In this document: piece by piece, positions 3,205 to 48,110 of the stretch
How positions within the stretch are numbered: the stretch's first letter is position 1
Layout of the letters: the number at the start of each line of letters is the position of its first letter
NCBI RefSeq assembly: GCF_026571515.1
Contig: NW_026857783.1
Location: 178,878 to 242,877, forward strand
Length of the DNA stretch: 64,000 bases
Origin: Ruditapes philippinarum
Taxonomy: Eukaryota
Reading direction: 5' to 3'
Made by a program: the position numbers and the translations under genes
Notes under the pieces: generated by a model
What the model was told of the DNA's origin: nothing
The model's database searches: none
The model's input: only the letters and a program-made list of their open reading frames with translations

Positions 3205-4385
3205 CTTTTTATGCCCCCACAATGTGGGAGCATATAGCGTTGCACTTGTCCGTCCGTCCGTCAGTCCGTCCGCACTCACAGGACAGTAATTATGTGGCTA
3301 GAGGGACAATAGGTAACTGTTCTTTCTCTTTGATGTCATTCATTCCGTAATGCTTTTATGTGGCTATTTTCTTTTGTGTGGCTAAAAAGAACAATAGAGA
3401 GAACAATAGAGTAGCCACATAATTACTGTCCTGTGAGAACTTCCGTCCGTACGTCCCGAAATCTTGTGAACGCAACTCCTCTTAAACCGGATGGCAGATT
3501 TTGCTTAAACAACATTAATGTGTATATGGTAGTAAAGGAAGGAATTTTTGCTGCGACCAAATTTAACAGAATTATGGCCCTTTGTTGATTTTTTCACTAT
3601 ATACTATGTAGAAATTTTGTGAACGCAACTCCTCTTAAACCGGATGGCAGATTTTGCTTAAACTTACAGGGATGAACAACCTTAATGTGTAGATGGTAGT
3701 AAAGGAAGGAATTTTTGCTGCGACCAAATTTAACAGAATTATGGCACTTTGTTGATTTTTTCACTATATACTATGTAGAAATTTTGTGAACGCAACTCCT
3801 CTTAAACCGGATGGCAGATTTTGCTTAAACTTACAGGGATGAACAACCTTAAGGTGTAGATGTTAGTAAAGGAAGGAATTTTTGCTGCGACCAAATTTAA
3901 CAGAATTATGGCCCTTTGTTGATTTTTTCACTAAATACTATGTAGAAATTTTGTGAATGCAACTCCTCTTAAACCGGATGGCAGATTTTGCTTAAACTTC
4001 CAGGGATGAACAACCTTAATGTGTAGATGGTAGTAAAGGAAGGAATTTTTGCTGCGACCAAATTTAACAGAATTATGGCCCTTTGTTGATTTTTTCACTA
4101 TATACTATGTAGAAATTTTGTGAATGCAACTCCTCTTAAACCGGATGGCAGATAATGCTTAAACTGGCAGGGATGAACAACCTTAATGTGTAGATGGTAG
4201 TAAAGGAAGGAATTTTTGCTGCGACCAAATTTAACAGAATTATGGCCCTTTGTTGATTTTTAGTTTTTCAACTTGTGGCACATGTAGTCCAAAAAATATT
4301 TGACCTAGAGTCATAAGATTGACAGAACAGTGGCGTGTGGGGGCATCCGTGTCCTATGGACACATTTCTAGTTCCATCAGTAAAG
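3205..4385 (+). mobile_element. non-autonomous TIR element (ATGCCCCCAC...GTGGGGGCAT) with (GTCC)n head, internal hairpin and 4.5 copies of a 180-bp satellite (3440-4260)
   Basis: termini atgcccccacaatgtggg (3211) and gtgggggcatccgtg (4340); inverted repeat cacaggacagtaattatgtggctag / tagccacataattactgtcctgtgag; near-identical element at 47440-48110. Confidence 0.6.
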
Positions 4386-4540
4386 CTAGAAAGTTGCCAT
4401 ATGATAATACAGTGTTGGTGTGACATACAAACAAAAATTAATTGAATGATAAAAGAGTTGATGATCTTGAATAAAATGAGTGACAAAAACATGACTAAAT
4501 ATTACTGTGCCATTTATATACATGTATATATATATTACAG

Positions 4541-4678
4541 AGATTGTCAGATCAATATTGTTGACATCTTTGCTGTAAATCGCCCGGTGGAGAGCAGCAA
4601 CTTCCTGTGGCATATCTCCAATAAACAACTTCTCTTCCACGCATCTAAAGCTAACAATATAGTTGGAATCTTATCCAG
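4541..4678 (+). CDS. PARP4: PARP catalytic domain exon (NAD-binding His block)
   Basis: DCQINIVDIFAVNRPVESSNFLWHISNKQLLFHASKANNIVGILSRGL parallels PARP1 YDLEVIDIF...[21 protein letters not shown] (H conserved, G to A); acceptor tatattacag|, donor CAG|gtaatt. Confidence 0.85.
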
Positions 4679-5424
4679 GTAATTACACAGATTGGTGAGC
4701 TATTTAAACTTTTTTATGGTAGATAATTATATAAAACATTACTGCGTGTTTGCAGTTAGACAATCAAACATGTATGTTACCTATATATACAGCTAATGCA
4801 AATTTGAGATTCTATTTCTACTTTTATCAAAGAAGGCAATAAATTTCCATATTATAAATTCTAAAGACTTGAATTGTTATTATATGGACATGTATAAACG
4901 GTTGTTTGCATTATAACCGTTATCAAGTGGCTTGTGTTAATAGGAGCTTACAGTCAGTTTTACTGGGCTATAGGAGAGGATCAGTGGTCAAGTGGTTATA
5001 CAGGTTCATTCCTTAACTACTCCACTAACAGTTCAAAATTTTAATGGTCTTTCATCTAAAAATAGCAAGGTCTCATGTATCTGTACTCTACACTTGGCAT
5101 GTAAAATAAATAGCTTATGGAACAGGTCAAATACTGCATCATTCATACAGTCCGCTAGAAATAAGAAAATATGCAGCATTGCAGATTGGGCAGCTGCACA
5201 CAACAGTTAGTAAAGTGAAGCAAAAAAAGAAAAATATTGGGCCATTTTACCTATATAATCTTGACCACAAATATACAAGCTGTAAGAATATTTTTCTTTA
5301 TTCTTCCTCAGGTTTCAAAGATTATTGCATCAGATTTAATGGCACATAATGCCTCAGAAACAAATAAAAAATTCTTTAAAAAGTTTGAGCATGTGCTTTA
5401 TAAAGTCTAAATAATGTCTTTAGA

Positions 5425-5580
5425 CCATGTTAGATGCTAAACACCAAAAGAGAGTAGTACTGAATGTGAAATTATGTTCATAAAAGTAGAAAAATGTAAA
5501 CAAAGCAGTAATTTGACTTCCATACAAAATACTAAATCACTATGACACTGTACTTGCCAAAAAAAAAAATGAACCAAAAG
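5425..5580 (+). repeat. SINE-like family B copy
   Basis: shares catgttagatgct..agtagtactgaatgtga..aatgtaaacaaagcagtaatttgacttccatacaaaatactaaatcac with 2490-2750; A11 tail. Confidence 0.5.
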
Positions 5581-5794
5581 ATGGTTCAGATTAGTATCCA
5601 GTGAGTAAATTTTCAGAAACTATAATTATCAGGTCACTAGAAATATAAAGCTTCTGAGAAAAAAAGATTGAAGAATGTATTGGGCATAATGGACAGGGAT
5701 AGGAATAGTCTATTGTACGGGCATCTTGCTTAAATTATAAAGAACCTTTTTGCATTGTTTATTATGAATTCTAAGTAATTAAGTTATATTTCAG

Positions 5795-6290: not shown

Positions 6291-6650
6291 CACAAATTTA
6301 ATTATCACATACTGAAAATATATAGACCATTTGAAGCGAAAAAGTGCCAATTTTCATTGACACGCCTATAGTATAATGCTAATATTTAGCATGTCTTAAT
6401 GCTCTGTTTATATAACACAAATGACGTCACTTCAAAATATAATCACGGCTGTGCAATACCATGTTTACAAAGTTGTAAAAATGGCACTGGTATGTGATAA
6501 ACTAAATTTTGAATGTAGGTCATTATTACATTATACTTGTATTTTATTTCTAAGGAAAAGCATTAAACCTTTACAAAGGTCCATTTCTTTCTTCTTTTCA
6601 CAATAATTTTTTTGAAATGGTAGATTTGATTTTCTTTCTGCAATTTTTAG

Positions 6651-6834
6651 TACAAGTGTTGGTTATTCTCTGGCAAGTAAAACAAAAGGGTCAAGGTTTA
6701 TGCTGGTCAGTGAGGTTGCCTTGGGCAGGTGTATGGATACGTATCAGAAAGATTTGACCTTGACCTCTGCTCCAGAAGGTTATAACAGTGTACATGGTGT
6801 GAAATCTTCTCCAGGAGAACAATCTGCATTTAAG
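6651..6834 (+). CDS. PARP4: PARP catalytic domain exon
   Basis: STSVGYSLASKTKGSRFMLVSEVALGRCMDTYQKDLTLTSAPEGYNSVHGVKSSPGEQSAFK parallels PARP1 VSKSANYC...LLGEVALGNMYEL...KGKHSVKGLGKTTPDPSA; acceptor caatttttag|, donor AAG|gtacta. Confidence 0.85.
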
Positions 6835-7526: not shown

Positions 7527-8048
7527 GTATGTATATCATGAATAATTGTGAATTTGGTGCATGTATAATACAAATAAAAAGCAATGGGAATGGTTTTCCT
7601 TCAATGTATCTAAATATTCAAGGTTATATTGAAACATTCTGTTTGTTTCCACAGGAAAATATTTGAATGTTTTAAATTACAGAAACTGTGCAATTGTTGA
7701 ATTCTACACCAGCATCTTGTTACCTTCCTCCTGAAATTTAAGTTATAAATGTTATAAACTCATGAAAAAATAACCATGAAATATCAGACTGTAACCTGCA
7801 TTCTGTGTAAGATTCAGTTCTTTAAGGCCAGTGTAGTATTTCTCATTACATTTGTATGATATGTTTTGCTGTTTTTCACATCAGGAACCTTATAAGATTT
7901 AAATAATACTGAGGGCATACTAGAACAGGTGCAGAGTCAAAGGTCAAGGCTAGTCTCATCTCCGAGGCAGATTCAGATGTTAACCTTTTATAATTATGTG
8001 CATGTGTTTATTTATTGCAAAAATAACATTTTGTCATTGTCTTATTAG

Positions 8049-8179
8049 GTTTGAAAGATGTCAAGGACATTACAGACCCTATGTCAAAGGTCAAGGCCGG
8101 TCTTGTCTCCAAGGACGATGCACCGGTTAACCTTAAATCTGTACATGTTCGTGCTAAACTGATGGATTTGGCATCTGAG
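8049..8179 (+). CDS. PARP4: VIT (vault protein inter-alpha-trypsin) domain exon 1
   Basis: SLKDVKDITDPMSKVKAGLVSKDDAPVNLKSVHVRAKLMDLASE; acceptor cttattag|, donor GAG|gtaaat; phase 1 to 0. Confidence 0.8.
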
Positions 8180-8500
8180 GTAAATTATGTACATCTCTAC
8201 TGAGATGTCAGGGCAGAGAGAATTTTTGTGTGTTCAGGGTGGTTTTAGATAAAATACATGTAATTAATTGTAGGGTGGTTGTTAGTTAAACTGCCAATAT
8301 ATCCTCATTAATGATTTGAAACAACTTTTAAGAATGAATTTATTAGATTCAATGTGATAACTATATTTTCTTGAAAAAAAACATGTTTTAGTCATAAGAC
8401 ACTTATTAATAAGTTCAAAATTGATGTAGCTATGAAGACTTAAATGATATGCTCCTTTTTTCATTGTAAATTTGGGCTGACAGTTGATGTTGGAAATATT

Positions 8501-9235
8501 TATACCCCCGCACAACAAAGTTGTAAGGGGGTATACTGGAATCAGCTTGTCTGTCCGACCGTCCAGCTGTCTGGCCGTATGGCGTCCGTCGTTTTTTTCT
8601 TGTCCGCCCAATAACTTAAGAATCCTTTGACCCACAGTCTTCATATTTGGCATGGAAGTTAGTCATAATCAGTAGATGACCCCTATTGATTTTGAGGTCA
8701 CTGGGTCAAAGGTCAAGGTCACAGGGGCCTTGACTTCAAAAAGCTTGTCCGCCCAAAAACTTAAGGTTCCTTTGACCCACAGTCTTCATATTTGGCATGG
8801 AGGTTAGTCGTGATTAGTAGATGACCCCTATTGATTTTGAGGTCACCAGGTCAAAGGTCAAGGTCACAGGGGCCTTGACTTCAAAAAGCTTGTCCGCCCA
8901 AAAACTTAAGGTTCCTATGACCCACAGTCTTCATATTTGGCATGGAGGTTAGTCATGATTAGTAAATGATCCGTATTGATTTTGAGGTCACTGGGTCAAA
9001 GGTCAAGGTCACAGGGACCTTGTCAAAATAAAGCTTTTCCCCAATGCCTGTCCAGAGTGTATTGATTTTGACATTTTCACATTTGAAGCATGTAGAATAC
9101 ATAACTTAGCAATGCACTGGCTTAGTCACCTCAGATTTGGCAGGGTGGTTGTCCTTGAGTTCTAAATGGCCACTGTTGATTCTGACAAAGTGGTATGCGG
9201 GGGTATTCACGCCATGATAGTGGCAGTTCTAGTTT
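8501..9235 (+). mobile_element. TIR element (TATACCCCCG...CGGGGGTATT) carrying a 139-bp satellite (~3.5 units)
   Basis: 5' tatacccccgcacaacaaagttgtaagggggtatactggaatcagcttgtctgtccg; 3' ggtatgcgggggtattcacgccatgatagtggcagttctagttt; same family as 39347-41095. Confidence 0.6.
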
Positions 9236-9568
9236 ATGATAAAATATAAATCTGGCTAAAATATAAAAAAAGACTGTGCCACTGTTTTTCTAAACTGATT
9301 GCTACATTTGAATTATAATAGATATTGACAGACTTTTCCTTGGGCCATGTGAGTTATTTATCGTTTCTGCGAAGTGAATTATTAAATTAAAAGGAATTAT
9401 TGCACAATGAAAACTTATTTTGACTTTCACCTGTGCACTCACTATCTACCCTGCTTTATGAAGGAATGAAATGAGGCAGTGAAAAAATTCAAGAGCTTTA
9501 GAAAAGAGTGAAGTATATCATCAGATGAATCACAAGCAAAGTGTGCTAATGATAATCTTTTATTTTAG

Positions 9569-9793
9569 GTGGTTGTGTTGCAAGAATATGAAAACAACAG
9601 TAAGAACCCTCTAGAAGCAAAGTATGTATTCCCACTAGGAGATCTAGCTGCTGTTTGTGGGTTTGAAGCATTTATCAATGGAAAACATATCATTGGGGAA
9701 GTGAAGGAAAAAGAGCAAGCCCATAAAGAATATAAGAAGGCAATTAGTGAAGGGCATGGTGCTTATCTTATGGACCAAGATGAGGAAACTCCT
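9569..9793 (+). CDS. PARP4: VIT domain exon 2
   Basis: VVVLQEYENNSKNPLEAKYVFPLGDLAAVCGFEAFINGKHIIGEVKEKEQAHKEYKKAISEGHGAYLMDQDEETP; acceptor tattttag|, donor CCT|gtaagt; 75 codons phase 0. Confidence 0.85.
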
Positions 9794-10140
9794 GTAAGTA
9801 CAGTGAAACTGTATAAATGGTATAAAATATGATATTTGACCTGTATAAATGGTATATATAAATAAGATATGATATTGAAACCTGTATAAGTAGTATATTA
9901 AAATGGTATAATTTAGATATGATATTGGACCTTTATAAATGGTATGATCTTAGACCTGTATAGATAGTGTGTAAGTGTATAAATGTTATATCAGAATAAT
10001 GATATTTGACTTGTATAAATGGCATAATATTAGATATGATATTGGACCTGTATAAATGGTATGAAATGACATAATATTATGATATTGGACCATGAATTAA
10101 TGGTATAAGATAAGATATGATATATGACCTGTATAAATGG
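9794..10140 (+). repeat. ~60-bp tandem repeat (5 units) beginning at the 5' splice site of exon 9569-9793
   Basis: units tgatatttgacctgtataaatggtataaaatat...; first unit overlaps donor CCT|gtaagtacagtgaaactgtataaatggtat. Confidence 0.65.
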
Positions 10141-20727: not shown

Positions 20728-21030
20728 TTTTTTTATGCCCCCTTTTATTGAGTTGGCACTGTCTGTCCGTATGTCTGTCTGTACATCCCCACTTACACAA
20801 CACAACTGTATCTTTGTCATGCATGGAGGGATTTTGAAATAACTTGACACAAGTGTCTACCACATCAAGACAATGTGTCATGTCCCTACTTTGAAGATCA
20901 AGTTCACACAGTTACAAGGTTCACATTCTCACAACTAGAGTTTAAAGGTACACACATTTGTGGCCGCACTGTAAATTTGTCATGCATTGAAGGTTTTAAA
21001 AAAATCAAAAAAAAAATCTTGTTTTTTATA
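20728..21030 (+). repeat. fragment of ATGCCCCC/(GTCT)n-headed element family, ending in A-rich tract that forms the polypyrimidine/acceptor context of exon 21040
   Basis: ttttatgcccccttttattgagttggcactgtctgtccgtatgtctgtctgtacatcc...; no matching 3' TIR, so truncated. Confidence 0.4.
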
Positions 21031-24790: not shown

Positions 24791-25725
24791 CAGTACAAGT
24801 GATGGGGAAAAGTAATTTTTCTCTTAATGAATTAACATTTGTCTTTTATTCCCAAGAGACATATATAAATCAAAATAATTTAGAAAGAAATGTTCTTACT
24901 TTAAGCTTATCAATTTATCTAATGAAGCCTTTCTTATACCCCTGAATGTAGATTTTAATCTTTAACCTATTTGATCCAAATGTGATTTAGACTTTGACAC
25001 CACTTGTTTAGAACCAGCCTAGTCTGCACATCCATGCAGTCTGACCACAAGGGCTCTATACTGTGGGAAGTTCAATTTTCATATTATTAGCTTGACTATT
25101 TGCAGAATAATCGAGCTAATGCAGTCACCCATTTGTTGGCGTTGGTGTCCCTGTGGTTAAGTTTTTGCGTGTAAGCTGATATCTCCATAACTACTGAAGG
25201 GAATGGATTGAAACTTCACACACTTGTTCTCTGTGATTATCTAACATGATTGGCACAAGTCCAATAACTCTTATTTGCTTTTTTTGCATAATTATGCTCC
25301 TTTTTTACTTAGAAATTCTTGTTAAAGTTTTTGCTTGTAAGCTGGTATCTTCATAGGGTTTGTGCTTTTTTGGGGACAATTTAATGCTTTCATAATAAAG
25401 CAGTGATTTACTCGATAAGACATCTTAATAACAAGCCTTTGTACCTTTTTGGACAATTTTATGTATTCATATAGGTAAGTACATGTATTATTATACTCAA
25501 TGAAACACCCTTGTGACAACTTTTTCGATTGGTGGAGCGCTGCTGTCCTCCAACAGTTCTTATTTTTAAATTGAAATCCTTTAAACTTTGGCTGAACTGT
25601 TCCAGGGCAAATCTTTTTCACAATGTCAGCAGGTCAGGAGTTCAACAATGATTTATCATGATAGCTATCCAAGAGATATAAGTCCGTTCTTTTTTTAAAC
25701 ACCATTTATTTGTTGTACAATCAAG

Positions 25726-29426: not shown

Positions 29427-30035
29427 GTGAGTTTTTGTAAAGGCTATTTAGCTTTTTTTATATTTAGCTAGATTATACATGTATGTAGCTTAATAATGAA
29501 GTGGCAGATGATAATTATTGTCCATGTGTATGTTCAGGTTTTTTTTACTGAACCATTAAGCTTTGTCAATATTTTTTAAATAACTTGGCACAATAATGTT
29601 TGTTCACCATCACGAAACAATATGTCATAATTTAAATTCACAATAAGATGTCAATAATTAGGAACCATTACTGTTTCATTCCATGGGCATTTTTTATTAT
29701 TTTAATTAGATTTTCCAACAAAAAGCTCAGGTAATAAGATAAGTGAATATGGACAGACAGGCATTAGAGTGTGCCTAAGTTGTTAGAGTGTGCCTAAGTT
29801 GTAAACATTAGGTTCTCAGTGTAACTGAATATTTCTGTAACTTGGCAGTTATAAAAAAAGGGCTTACATTCATTGTAATGACTATTACACCTTCAAATAC
29901 ATATCTCTACCAAAGGTAATAACTTAAAGGTCATTCCGACAAGTTTGTTGGTAGTACAATGTATGCGAATTATGTTCTGTTCCAATAACCTGAGGATTTG
30001 TGCTGGGATGAGATACCAGCAGGGAGTTTTTTAGC

Positions 30036-31700
30036 TCACCTGTCACAAAGTGACAGGGTGAGCTTTTGTGATCGCTTTTCGTCCGGCGTCTGTCCGGCGT
30101 CCGTCCGTCCGTAAACTTTTGCTTTAAAGGACATCTCCTCATAAACCACTGAGCCAATTTCATCCAAACTTCACAGGAATGTTCCTTTGGTGGTCACCTT
30201 GAAAAAATTGTTCAAAGAATTTAATTCCATGCAGAACTCTGGTTGCCATGGCAACCGAAAGAAAAATCTTTAAATATCTTCTTTTAAACAACCCTAAGAG
30301 CTAGAGCTAAGATATTTGGCATGAAACATCTTCTAGTGAGTGTTTACCAAGTTTGTTCAAATAAAAGCCCTGGGGTCAAAATTGGCCCCGCCCCAGGGGG
30401 TCATAGATTTTCCCTATATGCATATAGTAAAAACTTAAAAAATCTTCTTTTAAAGAACCCAAAGAGCTAGAGCTAAGATATTTGGCATGAAACATCTTCT
30501 AGTGAGTGTCTACCAAGTTTGTTTAAAAAAAAGCCCTGGGGTCAAAATTGGCCCCGCCCCAGGGGGTCATTGATTTTCCCTATATGCATATAGTAAAAAC
30601 TTAAAAAATCTTCTTTTAAAGAACCGAAAGAGCTAGAGCTAAGATATTTAGCATGAAACATGTTCTAATGGGTGTCTACCAAATTTGTTCAAATAAAAGA
30701 CCTGGGGTCAAAATTGGCCCCGCCCCAGGGGGTCATTGATTTTCCCTATATGCATATAGTAAAAAAATCTTCTTTTAAAGAAACCAAGAGCTAAGATATT
30801 TGGCATGAAACATCTTCTAGTGAGTGTCTACCAAGTTTGTTCAAATAAAAGCCCTGGGGTCAAAATTGGCCCCGCCCCATGGGGGGTCATAGATTTTCCC
30901 TATATGCATATAGTAAAAACTTAAAAAATCTTCTTTTAAAGAACCCAAAGTGCATAAGCTAAGATATTTGGCATGAAACATCTTCTAGTGAGTGTCTACT
31001 AAGTTTGTTTAAATAAAAGCCATGGGGTCAAAATTGGCCCCGCCCCAGGGGGTCATTGATTTTCCCTATATGCATAAAAATTATAGTAAAAACTTAAAAA
31101 ATCTTCTTTTAAAGAACCCAAAGAGCTAGAGCTAAGATATTTAGCATGAAACATGTTCTAATGGGTGTCTACCAAATTTGTTCAAATAAAAGCCCTGGGG
31201 TCAAAATTGGCCCCGCCCCGGGGGTCATTGATTTTCCTTATATGTGTATGGCAAAAACTTAAAAATCTTCTTTGAAAAAACCCATATAGCTAGAGATTAG
31301 ATATTAAGCATGAATCATCTTCTAATCAGTGTCTACAAAGTTTGTTTAAATAAAAGCCCCGGGGTCAAAATTGGCCCTGCCCCGGGGGTCATTGATTTTC
31401 CTTTTTTGTGTATAGCAAAAACTTAAAAATCTTCTTTGAAAAAACCCAAATAGCTAGAGTTTAGATATTAAGCATGAAACATCTTTTAGTAAATATCTAC
31501 AAAGTTTGTTCAAATAAAAGCCTGGGGGTCAAAACTGGCCCTGCCCCAGGGGTGTCATTGTTTTTAACTATATGTGTATAGTAAAAACTTAAAAAATCTT
31601 CTTTTAAAAAACCCAATGAGCTAGAACTTAGATGTTTAGCATGAAACATATCTGGCCCTCTTGTTTTAGATCTTGAGACAGCAAGATATTTTATGCCTAG
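30036..31700 (+). mobile_element. satellite-bearing element: perfect 33-bp hairpin head, (GTCCG)n tract, then ~9 units of a 165-180-bp satellite
   Basis: agctcacctgtcacaaagtgacagggtgagct hairpin at 30036-30068; tcgtccggcgtctgtccggcgtccgtccgtccg; unit ...gagctagagctaagatatttggcatgaaacatcttctagtgagtgtctaccaagtttgtt..aaagccctggggtcaaaattggccccgccccagggggtcattgattttccctatatgcatatagtaaaaac; related head at 61140-61320. Confidence 0.7.
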
Positions 31701-34665: not shown

Positions 34666-34894
34666 GTGAGTATACTCTAAAAGCAATAGTTTGATACAGG
34701 TTTTTATTGCTTAAGTCTTAGAAGTTAGAAATATTGTGTCTTAAATCTGTAAAACTATTATTGGACAGTGGGACACTACTTAGATATTTAGCATGAAACA
34801 TTGACTTGTAGACCTCTACAAAAATTGTTCACGCTATAACCCTGTGGTCAAAATTGCCCAACCCCAGGGATCATGGGTTTTCTTTGTATACATA

Positions 34895-35770
34895 TACAGT
34901 TGACTCTCAATAAGTCAAAATCGCTTAACTCAAAATTCCGCGTTAGTCGAAGAATTTCTAAAGTCCCGTCAAATTTCCTTCTTTATCTTTGTCTTTTTAC
35001 TCTGCTTAGGTCAAATTTTGACTTACTGAGACTCCTGTTTAGTCGAAAAGAAAATTTGGTCTTGTCAATTTAAGTCCAACATTTTTTCATCTCAATTAGT
35101 CGAAGTGTGAAAACAGCTGATTGATCAAAGGTCGGCGACATCAAGGTGAGAATTTGTCACTTGTGATTCACACGTTTCATAGTAATTTTAATTGCCGATC
35201 ATCATGTATTATTAACATGTTGTAAAAGTGGCTTTAATCGGTTTCAGGACTTAATTGGTTTTAACAGTTATATATCTAAATTAAGATTTAGTAACATTTC
35301 TTAAAGAAAGTTGACTCGTGCCAGTCTGACAGGTTTTAGTCAAATAACAGCCTAGGTATTGATGTTTGTTATCAACGTAAATGACATTTGTATAATTAAT
35401 GTTCCGTCATATTGCATACATTAATATGTACTTCCGGTTCACGATAGTTGCTTCTTTTGTTTTTGTCCGATGATCAATTCACTTCAAATATTAGATAAAT
35501 TTTTGAATGTTGAAATAAATATGTTATTGTGCTTTTATTATAATGAATTGTCATGAGTGCTTATTAAAAACATGTGCTTTACTGATGAATACTAACAAAC
35601 TTGCATTTAAGTCATTGCTACAAATGTTTGTGTTTCTTTGCACATGATTCAATCAGGCACATGTATATACATGTACGAATGTCAACGTAATCCACGTTAC
35701 TCAAATTTCGTTTATCTAGAAGTAAAATGCCCAGTCCCTTGGATTTCGAGTTACCGAGAGTCAACTGTAG
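34895..35770. mobile_element. ~870-bp TIR element (ACAGTTGACTCTC...GAGAGTCAACTGT) inserted into a copy of the 180-bp satellite unit
   Basis: left atacagttgactctcaataagtc, right cgagagtcaactgtag; flanking 34755-34894 and 35771-35900 resemble one unit of the 30-31.7 kb satellite; partial copy at 43555-43830. Confidence 0.6.
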
Positions 35771-36173
35771 TTATTTCTGTAAAATTCCTCTTTTTAAAAG
35801 CTAAAAGAGTTAGATCTTAGATATTTAGCATGAAATCTCTAAAAAAATTGTTCAAACTATGGCCCTGGGGTCAAATTTCGCTTATAGGTTTTCCTTTTAT
35901 ACATTTAGTAAATAATTTGAAAAACATTTCCTCCAGAACTATAAAGGTTAGGGCTTTGTGATTATATAACTGCACATTTGAACTCCATACCAGGCTGTAT
36001 TATAACACAGATCACTCAAAGTCAGGATCTATTTCCAAAATAAAAAGCCATATTACAAACATGCAGCATTGAATAATCACTCATACATAGGTAAATTTTA
36101 ATTTCAATGAAACAAAGATAATGTGAAGTATTGTAATTCTATAATAAAGACATTTTAATATGTTACATTTCAG

Positions 36174-36241: not shown

Positions 36242-36919
36242 GTAATTAATGATGTTTTGTAAAGTATATATATATGTGAGTCTAGCTAAAGATATATAAA
36301 AAAGAGTATTTTCTGGTGGTATTTCACATTGTGTAAAAAGACAGCTATAGTTCTGGCATAAGATGATTTCCACTGAATAATTGCATTTTCCTTTTTTTGA
36401 CAAAATTGACCAAAAATCCCCAATTTTATCTTGAAATTTCTCATACAATCTGTTTTAAACTAGCTTATCTCTTAAGTCTTATAAAGCTTATATTTTTATG
36501 AGAATCACTGTTCGTATTATTATGTAAATGTGTCTTAAAAGTGAGGTTTAATAGGGCCGTTAATCTTACTGAACTGAATGTTCTTATGTGCACCATTTCG
36601 ATTTTCCAAATTTTAAAGGCAAAGGATAAAGACACATAAAGCCTAAAATTTGTTCTTGTTTCTCAAAAGCTTTATATTTTTCGTGTTTTGGTACAGTTAA
36701 CAAAAGTACCTATACATTTAGCTGGGACATCTTTTGCTTCTTTATTATATAGGCAATAATAGTCCCTTTATAAAGATTTAGTATATTATATGGAAGTCAA
36801 AATACCACTTGTTTACATTTTGCCACCTTTGTGACAAATTGTTTGACATTCAGGTGATTATATTACCATCTCACATTAGCATGTTTACATACATAATTAC
36901 CCTCTTTATGGAATGAGAA

Positions 36920-38330
36920 ACCAAAACGAAGTTTGTGGGGGGGGGGGTATATAGGAGTCACCCAGTGGTCCGTCGGTCCAGTGTTCAGTTGCATTTTTTC
37001 TTGTCTGGAGCATAACCTGAAAACTAATGGTTGGAATTCAATACAACTTCATACAATGGTCAAGCACATTGAGAGGAAGTGCAGTGCACAAGAACCATAA
37101 CTCCATCTTGACTAATTACAGAGTTATTACCCTTTGTTATTTTTCCTTGTCTGGAGCATTACTTGAAAAGTACTGGTTGGAATTCAAAACAACTTCATAC
37201 AATGGTCAAGCACAATGAGGGGATGTGCAGTGCATAAGAATCATAACTCTATCTAAAGTATCTAAAGTAATTACAGAGTTGTTGCCCTTTGTTACTTTTC
37301 CATTGCTTTTTTTGTCAGGAGCATAACTTGAAGACTTATGGCAGGCAAGCACATTGAGAGGAAGTGCAGTGCACAAAAACCATAACTTCATTTTGACTAT
37401 TTAAAGAGTTATTGCCCTTTGTTACTTTTCCTTGTCCGGAGCATAACTTGAAAACTACTGGTTGTAATTCAATACAACTTTATACAATGGTCAAGCACAT
37501 TAAGAGGAAATTCAGTGCACAAGAACCATAACTCTGTCCAGAGTAATTATTGTGTTATTGCCCTTTGTTACTTTTCCATTGGTTTTTTTTTCCTGTCCAG
37601 AGCATAACTTGAAAACTACTAATTGGAATTCAGTACAATTTCATACAATGGTCAATATATTGAGAGGAAGCATAGTGCACAGAAACCATAATCCTTTCTT
37701 GACTCATTTAAGAGTTTTTGCCCTTTGTTACTTTTTATTATCCAGTGCATAACTTGAAGACTAAAGGTTGGAATTCAATGAAACATCATACAATGGTCAA
37801 GGGCAGTGAGATGAAGTGAAGTTCACAAGAACCATAACTCTATTTGGACTAATTACAGTTATTACCCATTGTTACTTGTTTTTGTCCAGTGCATAACTTG
37901 AAAACATTTAGTTGGAATTCAATACAACTTCATACAATGGACAAGCTCAATGAGAGGAAGTTTGATGTACAATAACCATAACTCCATCTTCAGTATTTTT
38001 AGAGTTAGTGCCCTTTGTTCCTTTTCCTTGTCCAGTGCATAACTTAAAAACTTTTGTTTAGAATTCAATGCAACTTCATACAATGGTCAAGCACAACGAG
38101 AGGAAGTGAAGTGCTTAAGAAGCGTAACTCTTTCTGGACTTTTTACAGACTAATTCAATAAAACTTCATCAATGGTCAACCACATTGAAAATAAATGCAA
38201 CATACAAGAACCACAACTATCTTTAATTGCCCACAACCATAACTCTATTTCAATTCTTTGACAAGGTATTCTCTTACTAGTATTTTCCTAATTTCTGAAG
38301 CAGTTTTGCGGGGGTATTATTAAATCACAT
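36920..38330 (+). repeat. ~155-bp satellite array (~8 units) inside 5'-truncated TIR element of the GGGGGTAT family
   Basis: head aaacgaagtttgtgggggggggggtatataggagtcacccagtggtccgtcggtcc; units ...caatggtcaagcacattgagaggaagtgcagtgcacaagaaccataactc..ttattgccctttgttacttttccttgtc..; tail tgcgggggtattattaaatcac. Confidence 0.65.
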
Positions 38331-38519
38331 TTAGTGATACATGTACTTCTAGTTTAATTCTGATTCATATATAATATGCCTTTAAGGAAAATATGATAGA
38401 AATACAGATGGGACAATTTTTCAACATTTGTAATAGCATTGCTATAACTTTTATATGAATAGCCTTACTAGTTTGAAGGTTAGGTTAAACCTAAAATATT
38501 GTATATCACAGGACATCTC

Positions 38520-39346: not shown

Positions 39347-41095
39347 TTATACCTCCCAACAACGAAATTGTAAGGGGTGTATACTGGAATCAGCTTGTCT
39401 GTCCGTCCGTCAATCTGGCCATCCATTGGTTTTGGCTTGTACGCCCATTAACTTAAGATTCCTTTGACCAACAGCCTGCATAATTGACATGGAGGTTAGT
39501 CATGACTAGTAGATGACCCCTATTGATTTTGAGGTCACTAGGTCAAAGGTCAATGTTACCGGGACCTTGACTAAGAAAAGCTTGTCCGCCCAATAACTTA
39601 ATAAAGCTTTGACCCACAGTCTTTATATTTGCCATGGAGGTTAGTCATGATTAGTAGATGACCCCTATTGATTTTTAGGGCACTGGGTCAAAGGTCAAGG
39701 TCAAATGGACTTTGACTTCAAAAAATTTGTCCGCCCAATAACTTAAGAAACCTTTGACCCACAGTCTTCATATTTGGCATGGAGGTTAGTCATGATTAGT
39801 AGATGACCCCTATTGATTTTGAGGTCACTTGGTCAAAAGTCAAAGTCACAGGGGCCTTTACTATAAAAGCTTGTCCGCCAAATAACTTAAGTTTCCTTTA
39901 ACCACAGTCTTCATATTGGCCATGGAGGTTAGTCATGATTAGTAGATGACCCCTTTTGATTTTGAGGTCATTGGGTCAAAGGTCAAGGTCACAGAGACCT
40001 TGACATTAAAAAGTTTGTCCACCCAATAACTTAAGAAACCTTTGACCAACAGTCTTCATATTTGGCATGGAGGTTAGTCATGATTAGTAGATGACTCCTA
40101 TTGATTTTGAGGTCACTGGGTGAAAGGTTAAGGTCACAGAGGCCTTAACTATAAAAAGCTTGTCAGCCCAATAACTTAAGAAAGCTTTGACCCACAGTCT
40201 TCATATTTGGCAAGGAGGTTAGTCATGATTTGTAAATGACCCCTATAGATTTTGAAGTCACTAGGTCAAAGATCAATGTTACCCGAACCTTGACTAAGAA
40301 AAGCTTGTCCGCCCAATAACTTAAGAAAGCTTTGACCTAAAGTCTTTATATTTGCCATGCATGTTAGTCATGATAAATAGATGACCCCTATTGATTTTGA
40401 GGTCACTGGGTGAAAGGTTAAGGTCACAGGGGCCTTTACTATAAAAAGCTTGTCCGCCCAATAACTTAAGAAAGCTTTGACCTAAAGTCTTTATATTTGC
40501 CATGCATGTTAGTCATGATTAATAGATGACCTCTATAGATTTTGAGGTCACTGGGTCAAAGGTCAAGGTCACATGGACTTTGACTTCAAAAAGTTTGTCT
40601 GCCCAATAACTTAAGAAACCTTTGACCCACAGTCTTCATATTTGGCATGGAGGTTGATCATGACCATTAGGTGGCTCCTATTGATTTTTAGGTCACTGGG
40701 TCAAAGGTCAAGGTCACAGGGACCTTGATTAAAAAAGCTTTTCCCGTCAAATGCTTAAGAATGCTTTGGTCAACAGTCTTCATTTTTGTTATTGAGGTTG
40801 TTTATGACTAGTAGATGGCCTCTATTGATTTTTAGTTGACTGTGTCAAAGGTCAAGGTCACAGGGATTTTTACTAGAATAAGTTTGTCTTCTCAAATGCT
40901 TAAGAATGCCTGTCTGCAGTGTATTGATTTTGACATTCTCACATTTGAAGTATGTAGAATACATAACTTAGCAATGCACTGACTTAGTAACCACAGATTT
41001 GGCAGGGAGGTTGTCCTTGAGCTCTAAATGGCCACTGTTGATTCTGACAAAGAGGTATGCGGGGGTATTCACGCCATGACAGTGGTAGTTCTAGT
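39347..41095 (+). mobile_element. TIR element (TATACCTCCCAAC.../...GCGGGGGTATTCAC) with ~11 units of the 139-bp satellite; same family as 8501-9235
   Basis: 5' tatacctcccaacaacgaaattgtaaggggtgtatactggaatcagcttgtctgtccgtccgtc; 3' aagaggtatgcgggggtattcacgccatgacagtggtagttctagttt; ends 66 bp before acceptor of exon 41161. Confidence 0.65.
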
Positions 41096-41160
41096 TTTTT
41101 CAAAAGTATGAATCAAAATGCAGAACTAATATGAATAAGAGTTCTTTTTTTTGCATACAG

Positions 41161-42444: not shown

Positions 42445-42519
42445 GTTTGTAAAACATAACACTTTTATAAGGTTTGACTTTCTTAATATACAGTACAGCT
42501 TTAACAATTTTTCCAAAGT

Positions 42520-43545: not shown

Positions 43546-44999
43546 GTTTGAGCTGTACTGATACAGTTGACTCTCAGTACATCAAGTCCTGTCAAAATTT
43601 CTTCTTATATATTTGAACATCCTTTATGTCTAATCAAATTTTTACTCCAGATGGAGTAATTTTTATACTTAAAATTTTATAGTCCTGTTGTCCTGACAAT
43701 TAGATTTAAACCTTTTTTTTTTTTTACACAAAAAATTGAAACATTGAGACAGCCAATGATCAAAGATCGGAACATCAAGGTGAAATATTGTCATATTGGC
43801 TGACACATAAAGTATGATTGTTTATTGCTAGTACAATGTATATTAAAAACTACTGGTCATCATGTGGAATTGACATGCTCTAAATATTGCTTTACAGGTT
43901 TTAATACCTCCACTCTAGGGGGTGGGTGGGATTTAGATTTGTTCTTTGTCAGGCTGTCTGTCTGTGCGTGTGTTCTCATGTTGTGTCACATGTAGCTCTA
44001 AAAGTGCTTGAGCCAAAGTCAACTAACTTTAAAAGGAATGTTTATCAGCATGTGAAGCTGTGCACCTGGGGGGGGGGGGGGGTATGGGGATTAATTCAGT
44101 TTTGTCAGTGTTATTGCCCTTGACTTGGTAAAAATGGCCAATTTTCAATATGTGTCGCCTGTAGCCAAAAAGATATTTGACATGGAGTCTTGAATCTTTA
44201 CAGGAATGCTGGTCAGCATGTGTTATTCATTTGGGGAATAAATTTGTTGTTTTTATTCCCCAACCACTTAATGTTAAGGGGTGTCATGAAGAATTTCCTT
44301 TGCCTATCCCTATTTCATACCTTCCTACTGTATGTCAGTAGACTGACAAAACAGTGGAGTGTGGGAGCATCTGTGTTCTATGGACTCATTTCTTGTTTAC
44401 CGTAAGATACTTAAATCTCAGTTTTATTGAGAAAATTTATTATGCAAACATTATATGTTTTATTTGTTCTGTATAATATATGCATACATTAATGTATACT
44501 TCCAATTCAAGAGATTTCCTATATTTTGTTTTAATACAAATGGTGAAATATACCTTTTTTCCAGCAGGTGTTTTGGATATTGGTAAATCTAATATTAGTT
44601 ATATGATTGTGTGCATTTCAGATTGATAATTATCCTGCGTGCATTACATGAACATGTTCTGTTGATTATTTTCTTATTAAGTATTGATAAGTGATTCATA
44701 CACAGTGCACCAGTTAGCATTTAGAAGTAGACCTACAACTTTGTACAATCCCTCCATTTAAAACAGGTACAAAGTATTACAAGGCAATTAATTGCACCTT
44801 TTAAATCAAATTCCATTTATCTCAAAGTAAATTATGCCGGGTTCCTTGAAATTCTAGATACTCTCAGAGTAAACTGTTTGTATTTTATTTATGGTTAAAT
44901 GACTTTCTTTTATATTTATGAAATGGCCAAAAAAATATTCAAGATAATTTCCCATCCGTCTCCATTTTCGTGTCCGCTCTATAAATCCTATACCAATTG

Positions 45000-45440: not shown

Positions 45441-45829
45441 TTCTTATTTCACTGGCTAGTGCTTCAAGCTCGGATCAAGTTAAGCCTAATGCACCTAAGC
45501 TTAACCATTTGGTTTCCATGAGATGATAATCAACCCTTTTGTTGTTAAATGGTCAAAGTCATCTACTTTGAATTTGCCTTGGACCATGTGAAGTTTTCAC
45601 CTTATGGATCACTTTAAATTTAAGTTTAATTATGTGGAGAGGCTATCAAGATGTAAAATTAATTAGTCTTTCTCAGTTGACAGTACCTGTAACAATTCAA
45701 GTAATAAGTAAAAATTGAAATTTTCATGCACAAAGACATCTGTTGCCACACAAAACACAACCAAAGCAAATGTCAAGTGATTTCAGTAAAGTAGAGAAAC
45801 ACTTCATTATATCACTGTTTCCTTTCAAG

Positions 45830-45959
45830 GATTCCCTGAATGTTTCTAAAGAGGACGAACTTGAACAAGAACTAAGAAAAGAAATGGAAGAAGAGAGGAG
45901 CAAACCACAGGTATCTTGGAGGGCAATGTCTATGCCTAGAAGTGAAAGAATATGTGATG
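45830..45959 (+). CDS. charged exon
   Basis: DSLNVSKEDELEQELRKEMEEERSKPQVSWRAMSMPRSERICD(G); acceptor tttcctttcaag|, donor G|gtaagt; only this donor (not CAG|gtatct at 45911) keeps downstream exons open. Confidence 0.5.
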
Positions 45960-46029
45960 GTAAGTGTATAAATAATGTAGAAAAAAACCCAGATTTATTT
46001 TGTGTTTAAGAGTTCTGAAGGCTCAGGGT

Positions 46030-46800
46030 GACATTTTTGGCCAGGTTCACCGTGAGATATAGTGCAAGGTTTCGATGGTTTTACAATGCACCTTATCTCC
46101 CTTGAAGTTTAATGATATGGTACAAAGCAAATTAACTTTAAATCGGAGAAGCAACTTCAAAGGAGCTAAGGATTGCAAATCCTGTGAAGTTTCACTGAAA
46201 TCCCCCAGCAGTTTTGGTGATGCAGCGTGGATAAGCTTATTCTACTAAAATATAGACCATTAAGGGGCCAAGACTTTGCACACAAAAAATCAAGCAGAAT
46301 ATCAAGAGGGTATGCACAACTAGGCTTGGTAGCAAACATAATCCTGTGAAGTTTCCCTGAAGTTTTGGTAATGAAGTGCGGACAAGCTTATTTTACCCGA
46401 AAATTGACCATTAAGAGACCATAAAAAGCAGAAAATCAAGACACTATGAACAACTCGGCTTTAATTTCACTTAAATCCCCCAGCGGTTTGGAGATGAAGC
46501 TCTGACAAGCTTATTTTACTCAATATTTGTCAATTAAGGGGCCATAATTTTGTAAAAAAATTTAAGGGAAAAATCAAGAGAGTATGCACAATTAAGCATA
46601 GCGACAAACAATATTGTGAAGTTTCACTGAAATCCCTCAAGTAATTAAGTTTGGTGATGAATCACTGACAAGCTTATTTTACTCGAAATTTGACCATTAA
46701 GGGGCCATAATAGTGCAAAACAAATTCAAGCAGAAAATCAATATACTATACACAAATAGGCTTGGTGACAAAAATAAATATAAAATTATATTTGTATAGT
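46030..46800 (+). repeat. ~150-bp satellite x~5, with inverted partial copy at 46960-47170
   Basis: units ...cctgtgaagtttcactgaaatcccccagcagttttggtgatgcagcgtggataagcttattctactaaaatatagaccattaaggggccaagactttgcacacaaaaaatcaagcagaatatcaagagggtatgcacaactaggcttggtagcaaaca...; related to the 61598-62410 unit. Confidence 0.6.
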
Positions 46801-47439
46801 TCCACTGATTGAAGAAGACAAATATTATTTTGTTAAACTTATTCAATAAATTCAGTTTGAAGCATACACTCTTACAACAATCTTTCATAGACTAATTAGG
46901 AAGATCATCAATAAACCTAAAGGTACATTATGCCTCAGAAGTCACTATTTTTATGCCAGTGAAGGAAGGCATATAGTAATTGCACTCACTGTCTGTCCAA
47001 TTCCATCCTTCCATATGTGCATCCAGTAATCTTTTCCGTGCTAAGTCATCTCTAACACTGCTGGGGGGATTTCAGTGAAACTAATCACAGGATTGGTTGT
47101 CACCAAGCCTAGTTGTGCATAGTACCTTGATATTCTGCTTGATTTTGCCCATTAATGGCCTATTTTAGATAAATAAAATTCAATTTAGAGCATGTTAACA
47201 AGGTAAAATAAGATAACAAAAATAAAAAGGTTTGGAGAAATAAAATGATAGCATTTTGGGGGCCTAATGGGCCTTAAATAATTAAAAATCATCCATGGAC
47301 AAATCCCTTGTGAATTAGTTTACATGTAATGTTGAGATTTTCTTAAAATGTCTACAACAGGTATATGTAACATTTTCTATAAAAACCACTGCATTTAAAC
47401 ATATTCAAGTTTCAGTATGAGTTTTATTATGCCCCCACA

Positions 47440-48110
47440 ATGTGGGAGCATATAGCGTTGCACTTGTCCGTTAGTCCGTCCGTCCGTCAGTTTGTCCAGC
47501 CGTACGTCCCGAAATCTTGTGAACGCAACTCCTCTTAAACCAGATGGCAGATTTTCCTTAAACTTACAGGGATGAACAACCTTAATGTGTAGATGGTAGT
47601 AAAGGAAGGAATTTTCGCTGCGACCAAATTTAACAGAATTATGGCCCTTTGTTGATTTTTTCACTAGATACTATGTAGAAATTTTTTGAACGCAACTCCT
47701 CTTAAACCGGATGGCAGATTTTGCTTAAACTTACAGGGATGAACAACCTTCAGGTGTAGATGGTAGTAAAGGAAGGAATTTTCGCTGCGACCAAATTTTA
47801 CAGAATTATGGCCCTTTGTTGATTTTTTCACTATATACTATGTAGAAATTTTGTGAACGCAACTCCTCTTAAACCGGATGGCAGATTTTGCTGAAACTTA
47901 CAGGGATGAACAACCTTCAGGTGTAGATGGTAGTAAAGGAAGGAATTTTGCTGCGACCAAATTTAACAGAATTATGGCCCTTTGTTGATTTTTAGCTTTC
48001 AACTTGTGGCACATGTAGTCCAAAAAATATTTGACCTAGAGTCATAAGATTGACAGAACAGTGGCGTGTGAGGGCATCCGTGTCCTATGGACACATTTCT
48101 AGTCTTTAAA
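47440..48110 (+). mobile_element. second copy of the ATGCCCCCAC...GTGAGGGCAT element with 3 units of the 180-bp satellite
   Basis: near-identical to 3205-4385 (ttattatgcccccacaatgtgggagcatatagcgttgcacttgtccg ... cagtggcgtgtgagggcatccgtgtcctatggacacatttctag). Confidence 0.65.

What the first reader, a model, noticed from the sequence alone, without database searches (positions are those of the whole stretch)
3205..48110. Superfamily of TIR-bounded, satellite-carrying non-autonomous elements (ATGCCCCCAC..GTGGGGGCAT / TATACCCCCG..CGGGGGTATA)
At least eight members share one architecture. These are 3205-4385, 8501-9235, 14955-16105, 20728-21030, 36920-38330, 39347-41095, 43915-44395 and 47440-48110. 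Each has a terminal C5/G5-containing inverted repeat, a short hairpin, a (GTCC/GTCT)n microsatellite, then 2-12 units of a 140-180-bp satellite. Element families that move satellite arrays around a genome are one proposed route of satellite DNA dispersal (Helitron/MITE-associated satellites are described in bivalves). Here the termini look like TIRs, not Helitron ends.
Basis: partly seen in the sequence, partly recalled or inferred. Interest (0 to 1): 0.5.

Follow-up and report, generated by a model that had tools for sequence, protein, structure and literature searches.

The report
Satellite-carrying non-autonomous Helentrons (HINEs)
The eight elements are real mobile-DNA copies that carry short satellite arrays, but they fit a well-described class, non-autonomous rolling-circle Helentrons (HINEs, the pearl/DTC84/Cg_HINE type known from bivalves), not a new inverted-repeat transposon superfamily.

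Summary
All eight listed elements exist within about 13 bp of the stated coordinates. At least seven more copies or fragments lie in the window, about 22% of it in total.

Each intact copy has this order:
- a T-rich flank;
- a 10-12 bp subterminal inverted repeat (ATGCCCCCACA or ATACCCCCGCA);
- its complement forming a 5' hairpin;
- a (GTCY)n microsatellite;
- 2-10 monomers of 139-173 bp;
- the 3' subterminal repeat;
- a short hairpin;
- a conserved YTCTWGT terminus 22-36 bp beyond the 3' repeat.

The ends are therefore asymmetric and are not true terminal inverted repeats. A related metagenome contig lacks element 8500-9233 precisely. The empty site reads TTTT; the filled site adds only two T's and shows no other target duplication. 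Two true TIR MITEs in the same window serve as contrast; one has a clear TA duplication at its empty site.

This anatomy matches published HINEs (Thomas 2014; Cg_HINE 2020), which were once also called MITEs. No Rep/helicase partner was found, so membership rests on structure alone.

One unexplained extra: 14 of 15 copies share the orientation of the PARP4-like host gene.

Verdict: new members of a known kind, low interest.

The parts
3209..4372 (+). E1, complete HINE, family ATGCCCCCACA
   Evidence: 5' subTIR 3211-3221; IR 3223-3233; (GTCC)n from 3248; 167-bp array ~3465-4262 (4.9 units); 3' subTIR 4336-4346; hairpin GTGTCC-TAT-GGACAC 4349-4363; terminus TTCTAGT 4366-4372. A foreign MITE is nested at 3275-3437.
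8500..9233 (+). E2, complete HINE, family ATACCCCCGCA; empty site found
   Evidence: subTIR 8502-8512; IR 8525-8534; microsatellite ~8545-8590; 145-bp array 8599-9022; diverged monomer in the right flank ~9100-9185; 3' subTIR 9196-9206; hairpin 9211-9224; TTCTAGT 9227-9233. Precisely absent from metagenome contig L004.
14968..16111 (+). E3, complete HINE, subTIR ATACCCCCAC
   Evidence: subTIR 14970-14979; IR 14992-15001; (GTCG)n 15028-15043; 139-bp array 15049-15962 (6.5 units); 3' subTIR 16076-16085; hairpin ATCAC-N5-GTGAT 16088-16102; GTCTAGT 16105-16111.
20733..21022 (+). E4, degenerate copy directly upstream of an exon
   Evidence: Has ATGCCCCC at 20735, a (GTCT/GTCC) microsatellite at ~20757-20780 and two diverged repeat units 163 bp apart. 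It has no IR, 3' subTIR or hairpin. A possible TCTTGT end lies at ~21016-21022.
25078..25560 (+). E14, HINE-like fragment not in the finding
   Evidence: Has a 5' hairpin TAGCTTGACTATT/AATAATCGAGCTA and a degenerate (GTTGGC)n tract. It is 90% identical to a copy at a different site in L001. The 3' end was not identified.
30032..31664 (+). E9, HINE lacking a recognisable 3' end, not in the finding
   Evidence: Has a 5' hairpin TAGCTCACCTGTCAC/GTGACAGGGTGAGCT (fold z -5.5), a microsatellite at 30081-30110 and a 166-bp array x8.4 at 30263-31649. The same 5' module occurs in L001. No 3' subTIR was found.
34770..36000 (+). E13, decayed E9-like monomer array, interrupted by an unrelated MITE
   Evidence: L001 601-786, collinear with this stretch of the window, is 67-73% identical to E9 monomers in + orientation. 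The mariner-like MITE at 34897-35767 is not part of it.
36915..38353 (+). E5, HINE with lost or mutated 5' subTIR
   Evidence: IR 36937-50; microsatellite 36968-36979; ~8 monomers of 146-160 bp; 3' subTIR TGCGGGGGTAT 38307-38317 (the same as E2/E6); hairpin ATCAC-N5-GTGAT 38324-38338 (the same as E3); TTCTAGT 38347-38353.
39347..41095 (+). E6, HINE of the E2 family with a mutated 5' subTIR
   Evidence: 5' ATACCTCCCAA 39349-39359; microsatellite 39397-39412; 145-bp array x10 at 39435-40888; 3' subTIR 41058-41068; weakened hairpin 41073-41086; TTCTAGT 41089-41095.
43902..44396 (+). E7, old degenerate copy with an E1-like 3' end
   Evidence: 5' ATACCTCCAC 43904-43913; (GTCT)n ~43950; two units 168 bp apart; 3' TGTGGGAGCAT 44360-44370; decayed hairpin 44373-44387; TTCTTGT 44390-44396.
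47427..48103 (+). E8, complete HINE, same family as E1
   Evidence: Homology to E1 starts exactly at TTATGCC and stops exactly at CTAGT. subTIR 47429-47439; 167-bp array x2.9 at 47511-47993; 3' subTIR 48067-48077 (1 mismatch); hairpin 48080-48094; terminus 48097-48103.
52754..53780 (+). E10, complete HINE with an unrelated subTIR, not in the finding
   Evidence: subTIR GTCCCCTACCG 52756-52766 pairs with CGGTAGGGGAC 53734-53744; IR 52775-52783; (GTCY)n 52797-52847; 170-bp array 52847-53169; palindrome ATTGCTTGCAAT 53751-53762; TGCTTGT 53774-53780.
54456..55746 (+). E11, complete HINE with an unrelated subTIR, not in the finding
   Evidence: subTIR AACCAGGTTTTC 54458-54469 pairs with GAAAACCTGGTT 55711-55722; IR 54474-54487; (GGCG)n 54506-54545; 173-bp array x6.2 at 54548-55621; hairpin CATGGC-ATT-GCCATG 55724-55738 (z -2.7); TTCTTGT 55740-55746. 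Its monomer is homologous to E1's.
61137..61260 (+). E15, decayed E9-like 5' fragment
   Evidence: 83% identical to the E9-type 5' module in L001. Sequence read.
61537..62456 (-). E12, complete HINE and the only minus-strand copy, not in the finding
   Evidence: On the minus strand: subTIR TGTGTCGCCTC 62454-62444 pairs with GAGGCGACACA 61569-61559; (GTCY)n on both sides of a 333-bp (2 x 155) array at 61629-62386; CTCTTGT end at 61543-61537. Its monomer is the reverse complement of the E11/E1 type.

Best explanation
These are HINEs, non-autonomous Helentrons. Helentrons are the endonuclease-encoding branch of the rolling-circle Helitron transposons.

Shown here: the modular anatomy, the asymmetric ends, the conserved 3' terminus across families with unrelated repeats, discrete insertion into a T-run, and arrays that travel with the flanks.

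Inferred mechanism, from the published Helentron/Helitron model:
1. A Rep/helicase protein encoded elsewhere in the genome recognises the 5' subterminal repeat and hairpin and nicks there.
2. It displaces one strand, and transfer ends at the 3' repeat, hairpin and YTCTWGT signal.
3. The single-stranded (probably circularised) copy is integrated between T's without a conventional target duplication.

The satellite array is internal cargo. In the E2/E6 family it arose by tandem duplication of the element's own internal sequence. Monomer number then changes by slippage or unequal exchange between fixed first and last monomers.

Flanking modules and arrays have been reshuffled between families. 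E5 combines the E2-type 3' repeat with the E3-type hairpin. Homologous monomers occur behind unrelated termini in E1, E11 and E12.
For: 1. Architecture. The order subTIR, IR, (GTCY)n, 139-173 bp repeats, 3' subTIR, palindrome is seen in 10 copies. It matches feature by feature the HINE definition of Thomas 2014 and Cg_HINE, which has an 11-12 bp subTIR, a 7-12 bp IR, a GTCY/GTCC/GTCK microsatellite and a 3' palindrome.

2. Asymmetry. The 5' subTIR starts 2 nt from the end. The 3' subTIR ends 22-36 nt before the terminus. E1/E8 and E2/E6 homology runs through that tail and stops exactly at CTAGT.

3. Conserved 3' terminus. TTCTAGT, GTCTAGT, TTCTTGT, TGCTTGT and CTCTTGT occur in families whose subTIRs are unrelated (ATRCCCCC, GTCCCCTACCG, AACCAGGTTTTC, TGTGTCGCCTC). 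A hairpin is always at the same place but with different stem sequences.

4. Empty site. L004 reads ggaaataTTTTatgataaa where the window reads ggaaataTTT[E2]TTTatgataaa. Flanks of all complete copies are T or TT, and no longer duplication exists.

5. Contrast in the same window. A mariner-like MITE (34897-35767) has truly terminal repeats and a TA duplication at its empty site in L001.

6. SubTIRs start with ATACCC, as do those of the Drosophila Helentron families that partner DINE-1: ATACCCTTGCAAG and ATACCCGTTACTC.

7. The same 5' module occurs in other sequences: seven contigs found by the metagenome scan (L006-L012) and a distant PARP4 orthologue from an ENA assembly (L003). Two are array-less minimal elements ending GGGGGTAT + hairpin + CTCT(A/T)GT.

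8. No tRNA-like head was found, and no open reading frame of 70 aa or more resembling a transposase or Rep/helicase was seen by eye (not domain-searched).
Against: - No autonomous Rep/helicase(-endonuclease) partner with these termini was found. The defining genetic link is therefore untested; the tools gave no access to the host genome.
- The filled E2 site has two more T's than the empty site. That is formally compatible with a TT target duplication, as older MITE interpretations proposed.
- Individual 3' hairpins are short and not significant on their own (z -0.1 to -2.7).
- Only one empty site was obtained.
- Flank sequences could not be compared with Repbase/Dfam or with Cg_HINE consensus sequences; Table S2 is illegible in the held copy.
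Confidence: 0.88

Rival explanations
1. A family of cut-and-paste TIR transposon derivatives (MITEs) with a TT target-site duplication.
For: - There are 10-12 bp inverted repeats near both ends.
- Most copies are flanked by TT on both sides.
- The E2 filled site has exactly two more T's than the empty site.
- DTC84 and pearl were described this way.
Against: - The 3' repeat is 22-36 bp internal. The tail beyond it (hairpin + YTCTWGT) is conserved within and across families and has no counterpart at the 5' end.
- E8, a young copy, is flanked by TT on the left and TC on the right.
- Two metagenome copies lack a 5' TT.
- According to PMC7492417, pearl has been re-categorised as a non-autonomous Helentron.
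- True TIR elements in the same window look different.
Confidence: 0.07
2. These are not mobile. Dispersed satellite arrays would have been copied around the locus by segmental duplication or recombination, and the shared flanks would be part of the duplicated block.
For: All copies lie within one 64-kb locus, and 14 of 15 share one orientation.
Against: - Homology between paralogues stops at sharply defined ends, and the flanks beyond them are unrelated.
- E2 is precisely absent from a related contig.
- The same end modules occur at other sites in L001 and L003 and in the L006-L012 contigs found by the metagenome scan.
Confidence: 0.02
3. SINE-like retroposons carrying tandem repeats, copied through an RNA intermediate.
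For: They are short, non-coding, abundant and located in introns.
Against: - No tRNA-like head was found.
- There is no poly(A) or A-rich tail.
- No variable-length target duplication is seen.
- Inverted repeats and a 3' hairpin are not SINE features.
Confidence: 0.02

Closest known systems
Cg_HINE elements of Crassostrea gigas (Repbase Helitron-N*_CGi; Vojvoda Zeljko et al. 2020, PMC7492417)
   Same: - The same module order: 11-12 bp subTIR, nearby complementary IR, GTCY/GTCC/GTCK microsatellite, central satDNA-like repeats with Repbase-aligned spans of ~146-181 bp, 3' subTIR followed by a palindrome.
- T-rich/TT insertion sites and no target duplication.
- Some elements carry two consecutive arrays, which E10 may also do (read by eye, not quantified).
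- Different flanks are combined with related or unrelated monomers.
- Copies occur inside gene introns.
   Different: - The host is different: an unnamed mollusc whose nearest named PARP4 hits are Tegillarca and Pomacea.
- Sequence identity of the flanks to Cg_HINE could not be tested.
- Only one literature monomer (C. gigas CL1) was compared, and it gave no clear match to any array here; the best score was z 3.7 with E10.
- Cg_HINEs were reported in both orientations, whereas 14 of 15 copies here share one orientation.
pearl (CvA/CvE/CvG, C. virginica), the related M. galloprovincialis element and DTC84 (Donax trunculus; PMC3879986)
   Same: - Flank L, ~160-bp core repeats, a tetranucleotide ACGG/ACAG microsatellite (the reverse complement of GTCY/CCGT here) and flank R.
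- An 11-bp inverted motif, terminal at one end and subterminal at the other.
- AA (= TT) at the ends.
   Different: - They were described as MITEs with an AA target duplication. According to PMC7492417, pearl was later re-categorised as a non-autonomous Helentron.
- DTC84 has a fixed order of monomer variants, which was not seen here.
DINE-1/INE-1 and their autonomous Helentron-40/-60 partners in Drosophila (Thomas et al. 2014, PMC4067079)
   Same: - SubTIR, IR, microsatellite, central repeats and a 3' stem-loop.
- TT target preference.
- SubTIRs begin with ATACCC (ATACCCTTGCAAG, ATACCCGTTACTC), as does ATACCCCCGCA here.
   Different: - Only the first 6 nt of the subTIR are shared.
- No conserved DINE-1 core was examined.
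- No autonomous partner has been identified here.
Canonical Helitrons
   Same: They have a 3' hairpin a few bases from the end, and a 3' CTAG fits the CTRR end rule. They create no target duplication and are presumed to move by rolling-circle transposition.
   Different: Canonical Helitrons start with TC, lack inverted repeats and insert between A and T. These elements start with T(T)AT, have subTIRs and sit in T-runs.

Membership tests
HINE (non-autonomous Helentron) | 10-15 bp subterminal inverted repeats: the 5' copy a few nt from the end, the 3' copy tens of nt from the end | tested here: met
   The 5' subTIR starts 2 nt from the end. The 3' subTIR ends 22-36 nt before the terminus in E1, E2, E3, E6, E8, E10, E11 and E12, with 10-12 bp complementarity. 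Boundaries were fixed by paralogue comparison.
HINE (non-autonomous Helentron) | Short palindrome or stem-loop between the 3' subTIR and the 3' terminus | tested here: met
   A 4-6 bp stem lies at the same position in every complete copy. Stem sequences differ between families (GTGTCC/GGACAC, ATCAC/GTGAT, CATGGC/GCCATG, ATTGC/GCAAT). Each is individually weak (z -0.1 to -2.7).
HINE (non-autonomous Helentron) | IR complementary to the 5' subTIR, followed by a microsatellite and optional central tandem repeats (DINE-1/Cg_HINE layout) | tested here: met
   The 5' hairpins have z about -5 for E2, E3 and E9, and -2.1 for E1. (GTCY)n or (GGCG)n follows, then arrays. Array-less relatives occur in the metagenome contigs L009 and L011.
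HINE (non-autonomous Helentron) | Insertion into T-rich/TT sites without target-site modification | tested here: inconclusive
   There is one empty site: TTTT becomes TTT[E2]TTT, a gain of two T's. Flanks of the other copies are T or TT only. This excludes any non-T duplication but cannot separate 'element carries the T's' from 'TT duplication'. Published HINEs have the same ambiguity.
HINE (non-autonomous Helentron) | No coding capacity | tested here: met
   ORFs of 70 aa or more that overlap the elements are short, run through repeat sequence, and none looked like a transposase or Rep/helicase by eye (no domain search was run). No tRNA was found.
HINE (non-autonomous Helentron) | An autonomous Helentron (Rep + PIF1-like helicase + AP endonuclease) sharing the subTIRs and 3' end | not testable with these tools
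   There is no such ORF in the window or in L006. The other fetched loci were not screened specifically for Rep/helicase.
TIR (cut-and-paste) MITE | Inverted repeats at the very termini of both ends | tested here: not met
   The element continues 22-36 bp past the 3' repeat, and that conserved tail has no counterpart at the 5' end.
TIR (cut-and-paste) MITE | Fixed-length target-site duplication flanking every copy | tested here: inconclusive
   Only T-runs match. A TT duplication fits E1, E2, E3, E6, E10 and E11 but not E8 (TT/TC) or E7 (TA/TT). The positive control, the MITE at 34897-35767, shows a clean TA duplication.
Canonical Helitron | 5' TC, 3' CTRR, insertion between A and T, no inverted repeats | tested here: not met
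   The 3' CTAG fits CTRR and a 3' hairpin is present. However, the 5' end is T(T)AT(A/G)CC, subTIRs are present and the target is a T-run.

The most novel reading that the evidence does not exclude
HINE insertion or retention may be strand-specific relative to host-gene transcription, or relative to replication direction. That would be expected if a single-stranded rolling-circle intermediate integrates into only one exposed strand. In this window 14 of 15 copies, from at least six unrelated-terminus families and of very different ages, lie in the sense orientation of the PARP4-like gene. T-run availability on the two strands is about equal.
Probability: 0.25. Interest if true: 0.45.

Novelty: new member of a known kind. 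Interest (0 to 1): 0.2.

Why it matters
It matters little beyond annotation. The result adds another mollusc locus, with 22% of 64 kb covered, to the established picture that Helentron-derived HINEs carry dispersed satellite-like arrays in bivalves.

Useful details:
- A clean orthologous empty site.
- A 3' YTCTWGT terminus shared by families with unrelated subterminal repeats, which points to the 3' tail as a common recognition signal.
- Evidence that one array grew from the element's own internal sequence.
- Mixing of termini and monomers between families.

The orientation bias would be of moderate interest for the integration mechanism or for intron selection, but only if it holds genome-wide.

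Tried and rejected
- **Literal sequence search.** I searched 8 million papers for six element motifs and found nothing.
- **Host identification and more empty sites.**
  - The species-specific exon search gave only one short metagenome contig.
  - The VIT exon search gave L004, which was useful, and two Mb-scale ENA contigs, L002 and L003. Their introns are too diverged to align; only exons match, at 72-81%.
  - A concatenated query of seven other exons or ORFs next to E1, E4, E6, E7/E8, E9 and E10/E11 returned only distant PARP4 proteins. No second empty site was obtained.
- **Metagenome scan.** A scan with the shared E2/E3/E6 5' module gave seven related elements. L006, the longest contig and the only one whose ORFs were listed, had no Rep/helicase ORF.
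- **Possible link to Cg170.** My eyeball impression that the E9 166-bp monomer resembles oyster Cg170/CL1 did not reach significance with the scoring used, so I dropped it.
- **Right flanks as diverged monomers.** This holds only for E2/E6 (z 9.6), not for E1 or E3.
- **SINE reading.** No tRNA-like sequence was found.
- **T-run availability as the cause of the orientation bias.** Rejected, because T-runs and A-runs are about 1:1.
- **L003 HINE.** The 3' end of the copy in L003 could not be located.

Full report
**Observation.** The window is AT-rich animal DNA (GC about 33%). It carries a PARP4-like gene on the + strand:
- a PARP catalytic exon at about 6644-6803;
- a VIT exon at 9569-9832;
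- a VWA exon at about 13720-13980;
- large exons at 34059-34694 and 41131-42459.

All eight listed elements are real. ATGCCCCCAC occurs three times against 0.03 expected, always at element ends. TATACCCCCG occurs once against 0 expected. Tandem Repeats Finder reports 139-167 bp arrays at the stated places. E4 and E7 keep only about 1.5-2 decayed units.

**Anatomy.** Reading the ends and locating the motifs gives one layout. From 5' to 3' it is:
1. a T-rich flank;
2. T(T)AT(G/A)CCCCC(A/G)CA, a 10-11 bp repeat;
3. 1-12 nt later, its complement, forming a stable 5' hairpin (z about -5 for E2 and E3, -2.1 for E1);
4. a (GTCY)n microsatellite;
5. the tandem array;
6. a unique right flank;
7. the inverted copy of the repeat;
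8. a 4-6 bp stem hairpin;
9. TTCTAGT or GTCTAGT.

The 3' inverted copy ends 26-36 nt before the true terminus in the listed elements.

The true ends come from paralogue comparison. E1/E8 and E2/E6 identity begins exactly at TTAT and stops exactly at CTAGT, and the flanks beyond are unrelated. The elements are therefore bounded asymmetrically and not by terminal inverted repeats.

**More copies than reported.**
- E10 (52754-53780), E11 (54456-55746) and E12 (61537-62456, minus strand) are complete elements with the same layout.
- Their repeats are unrelated to those of the listed elements: GTCCCCTACCG, AACCAGGTTTTC and TGTGTCGCCTC. E11 also has a different microsatellite, (GGCG)n.
- All three end in TGCTTGT, TTCTTGT or CTCTTGT.
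- E9 (30032-31664), E13, E14 and E15 are partial copies.

Together these elements cover about 14.4 kb, or 22% of the window. The shared YTCTWGT tail and the position-conserved but sequence-variable hairpin, across families with unrelated repeats, are the strongest internal sign of one transposition machinery that reads an asymmetric 3' end.

**Mobility and target.**
- A JGI metagenome contig, L004, has a VIT exon identical in protein and introns about 88-89% identical. It aligns to window 7757-8501 and then directly to 9230-10026.
- At the junction L004 reads ggaaataTTTTatgataaa. The window reads ggaaataTTT[ATACCCCC...TTCTAG]TTTatgataaa.
- E2 is therefore a discrete insertion into a T-run. It adds two T's and nothing else.
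- All other complete copies are flanked by T or TT, and no longer direct repeat exists.
- Published HINEs behave the same way, including the unresolved question of whether the extra T's belong to the element.
- As a contrast in the same window, an 871-bp element at 34897-35767 is absent from contig L001. It has truly terminal repeats (CAGTTGACTCTC/GAGAGTCAACTG) and a clean TA duplication.

**Arrays as cargo.**
- The E1 and E8 arrays begin and end at the same monomer phase. Both end in the same truncated 144-bp last unit and differ only in internal copy number, 4.9 against 2.9, with 92-99% monomer identity. The array therefore transposes with its flanks and then changes length.
- In E2/E6 the 'unique' right flank contains a diverged monomer (z 9.6), so that array arose from the element's own sequence.
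- Monomers fall into two homology groups that cut across terminus types: {E1/E8, E11, E12 reverse complement, weakly E5} and {E2/E6, E3}.
- E5 combines the E2-type 3' repeat with the E3-type hairpin. This indicates modular reshuffling.

**Comparison with known families.**
- Thomas et al. 2014 define HINEs by 12-15 bp subterminal repeats close to the 5' end and tens of bp from the 3' end, a 3' palindrome, optional microsatellites and tandem repeats, and T-rich targets without target modification.
- Vojvoda Zeljko et al. 2020 describe oyster Cg_HINEs with an 11-12 bp subTIR, an IR, GTCY/GTCC/GTCK microsatellites, central repeats and a 3' palindrome. Insertion is at TT and no duplication is made.
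- Every structural feature is met here.
- The repeats also start with ATACCC, like the Drosophila Helentron-40/-60 repeats that partner DINE-1.
- The pearl and DTC84 elements of bivalves have the same modules and were first called MITEs with an AA duplication. That is the reading the first-stage reader reached. According to PMC7492417, pearl was later re-categorised as a non-autonomous Helentron.
- The same 5' module occurs in the seven contigs found by the metagenome scan, L006-L012, two of which carry array-less minimal elements. It also occurs in L003, a distant PARP4 orthologue from an ENA assembly.

**Limits.**
- No Rep/helicase partner was found in the window or in L006.
- Only one empty site was obtained. 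Searches for more failed.
- The host is an unnamed mollusc. The nearest named PARP4 hits are from Tegillarca, Pomacea and Candidula.

**Verdict.** These are new members of a known kind and of low interest.

The one unexplained point is orientation. Fourteen of 15 copies lie in the sense orientation of the host gene (binomial p about 0.001), while T-runs and A-runs are equally frequent.

Noticed in passing
whole window; elements listed under parts: 14 of 15 HINE-like copies, from several unrelated-terminus families and of different ages, share the + orientation of the PARP4-like host gene. Only E12, which probably lies beyond the last exon, is on the minus strand. Binomial p is about 0.001. T-runs and A-runs outside the elements are about 1:1, so target availability does not explain it.
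   Followed up: partly
window 3275-3437: A 163-bp MITE with perfect 26-bp terminal inverted repeats (CTCACAGGACAGTAATTATGTGGCTA) is nested in the microsatellite of E1. It is absent from the paralogous copy E8. Its target duplication was not resolved.
   Followed up: partly
window 34897-35767: An 871-bp non-coding element has terminal repeats CAGTTGACTCTC/GAGAGTCAACTG and a TA duplication, so it is Tc1/mariner-like. It is absent from the related metagenome contig L001 and is inserted into a decayed 166-bp-type array.
   Followed up: yes
L001 1460-1767 versus window ~36507: The related contig L001 carries a HINE-like 5' module (TAGCTCGACTATT hairpin + (GTCGGC)n), followed by an E9-type 5' module. 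The window has neither at that site, so this is an insertion polymorphism in the opposite direction. Only one junction is visible.
   Followed up: partly
window 1-~54400, + strand: The host gene is PARP4-like (vault PARP), with PARP catalytic, VIT and VWA exons, a ubiquitin-like ORF at 25729-25941 and a Pro/Gln-rich 442-aa exon at 41131-42459. E4 and E6 end within about 10-55 bp of the downstream exons at ~21030 and ~41150.
   Followed up: partly
window 48218-48813; also 25010-25060, 12914-13129 (-), 17598-17876 (-): A 31-bp minisatellite x19 (TAGCCTGGTCAGACTGCACAGATGTTCAGGC) lies just downstream of E8. By eye, similar 'cagtctgaccac / MDPDQT'-type sequence recurs at three other places, which would suggest a separate dispersed repeat family. 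The similarity was not quantified.
   Followed up: no
window 38518-38843 and 26896-27042: Two tandem repeats have no HINE features: 102 bp x3.2 (94% identity) between E5 and E6, and a perfect 36 bp x4.1.
   Followed up: no
window 61603-61626 and 62385-62407: E12 has (GTCY)n tracts on both sides of its 333-bp higher-order (2 x 155 bp) array. The other copies have one on the 5' side only.
   Followed up: no
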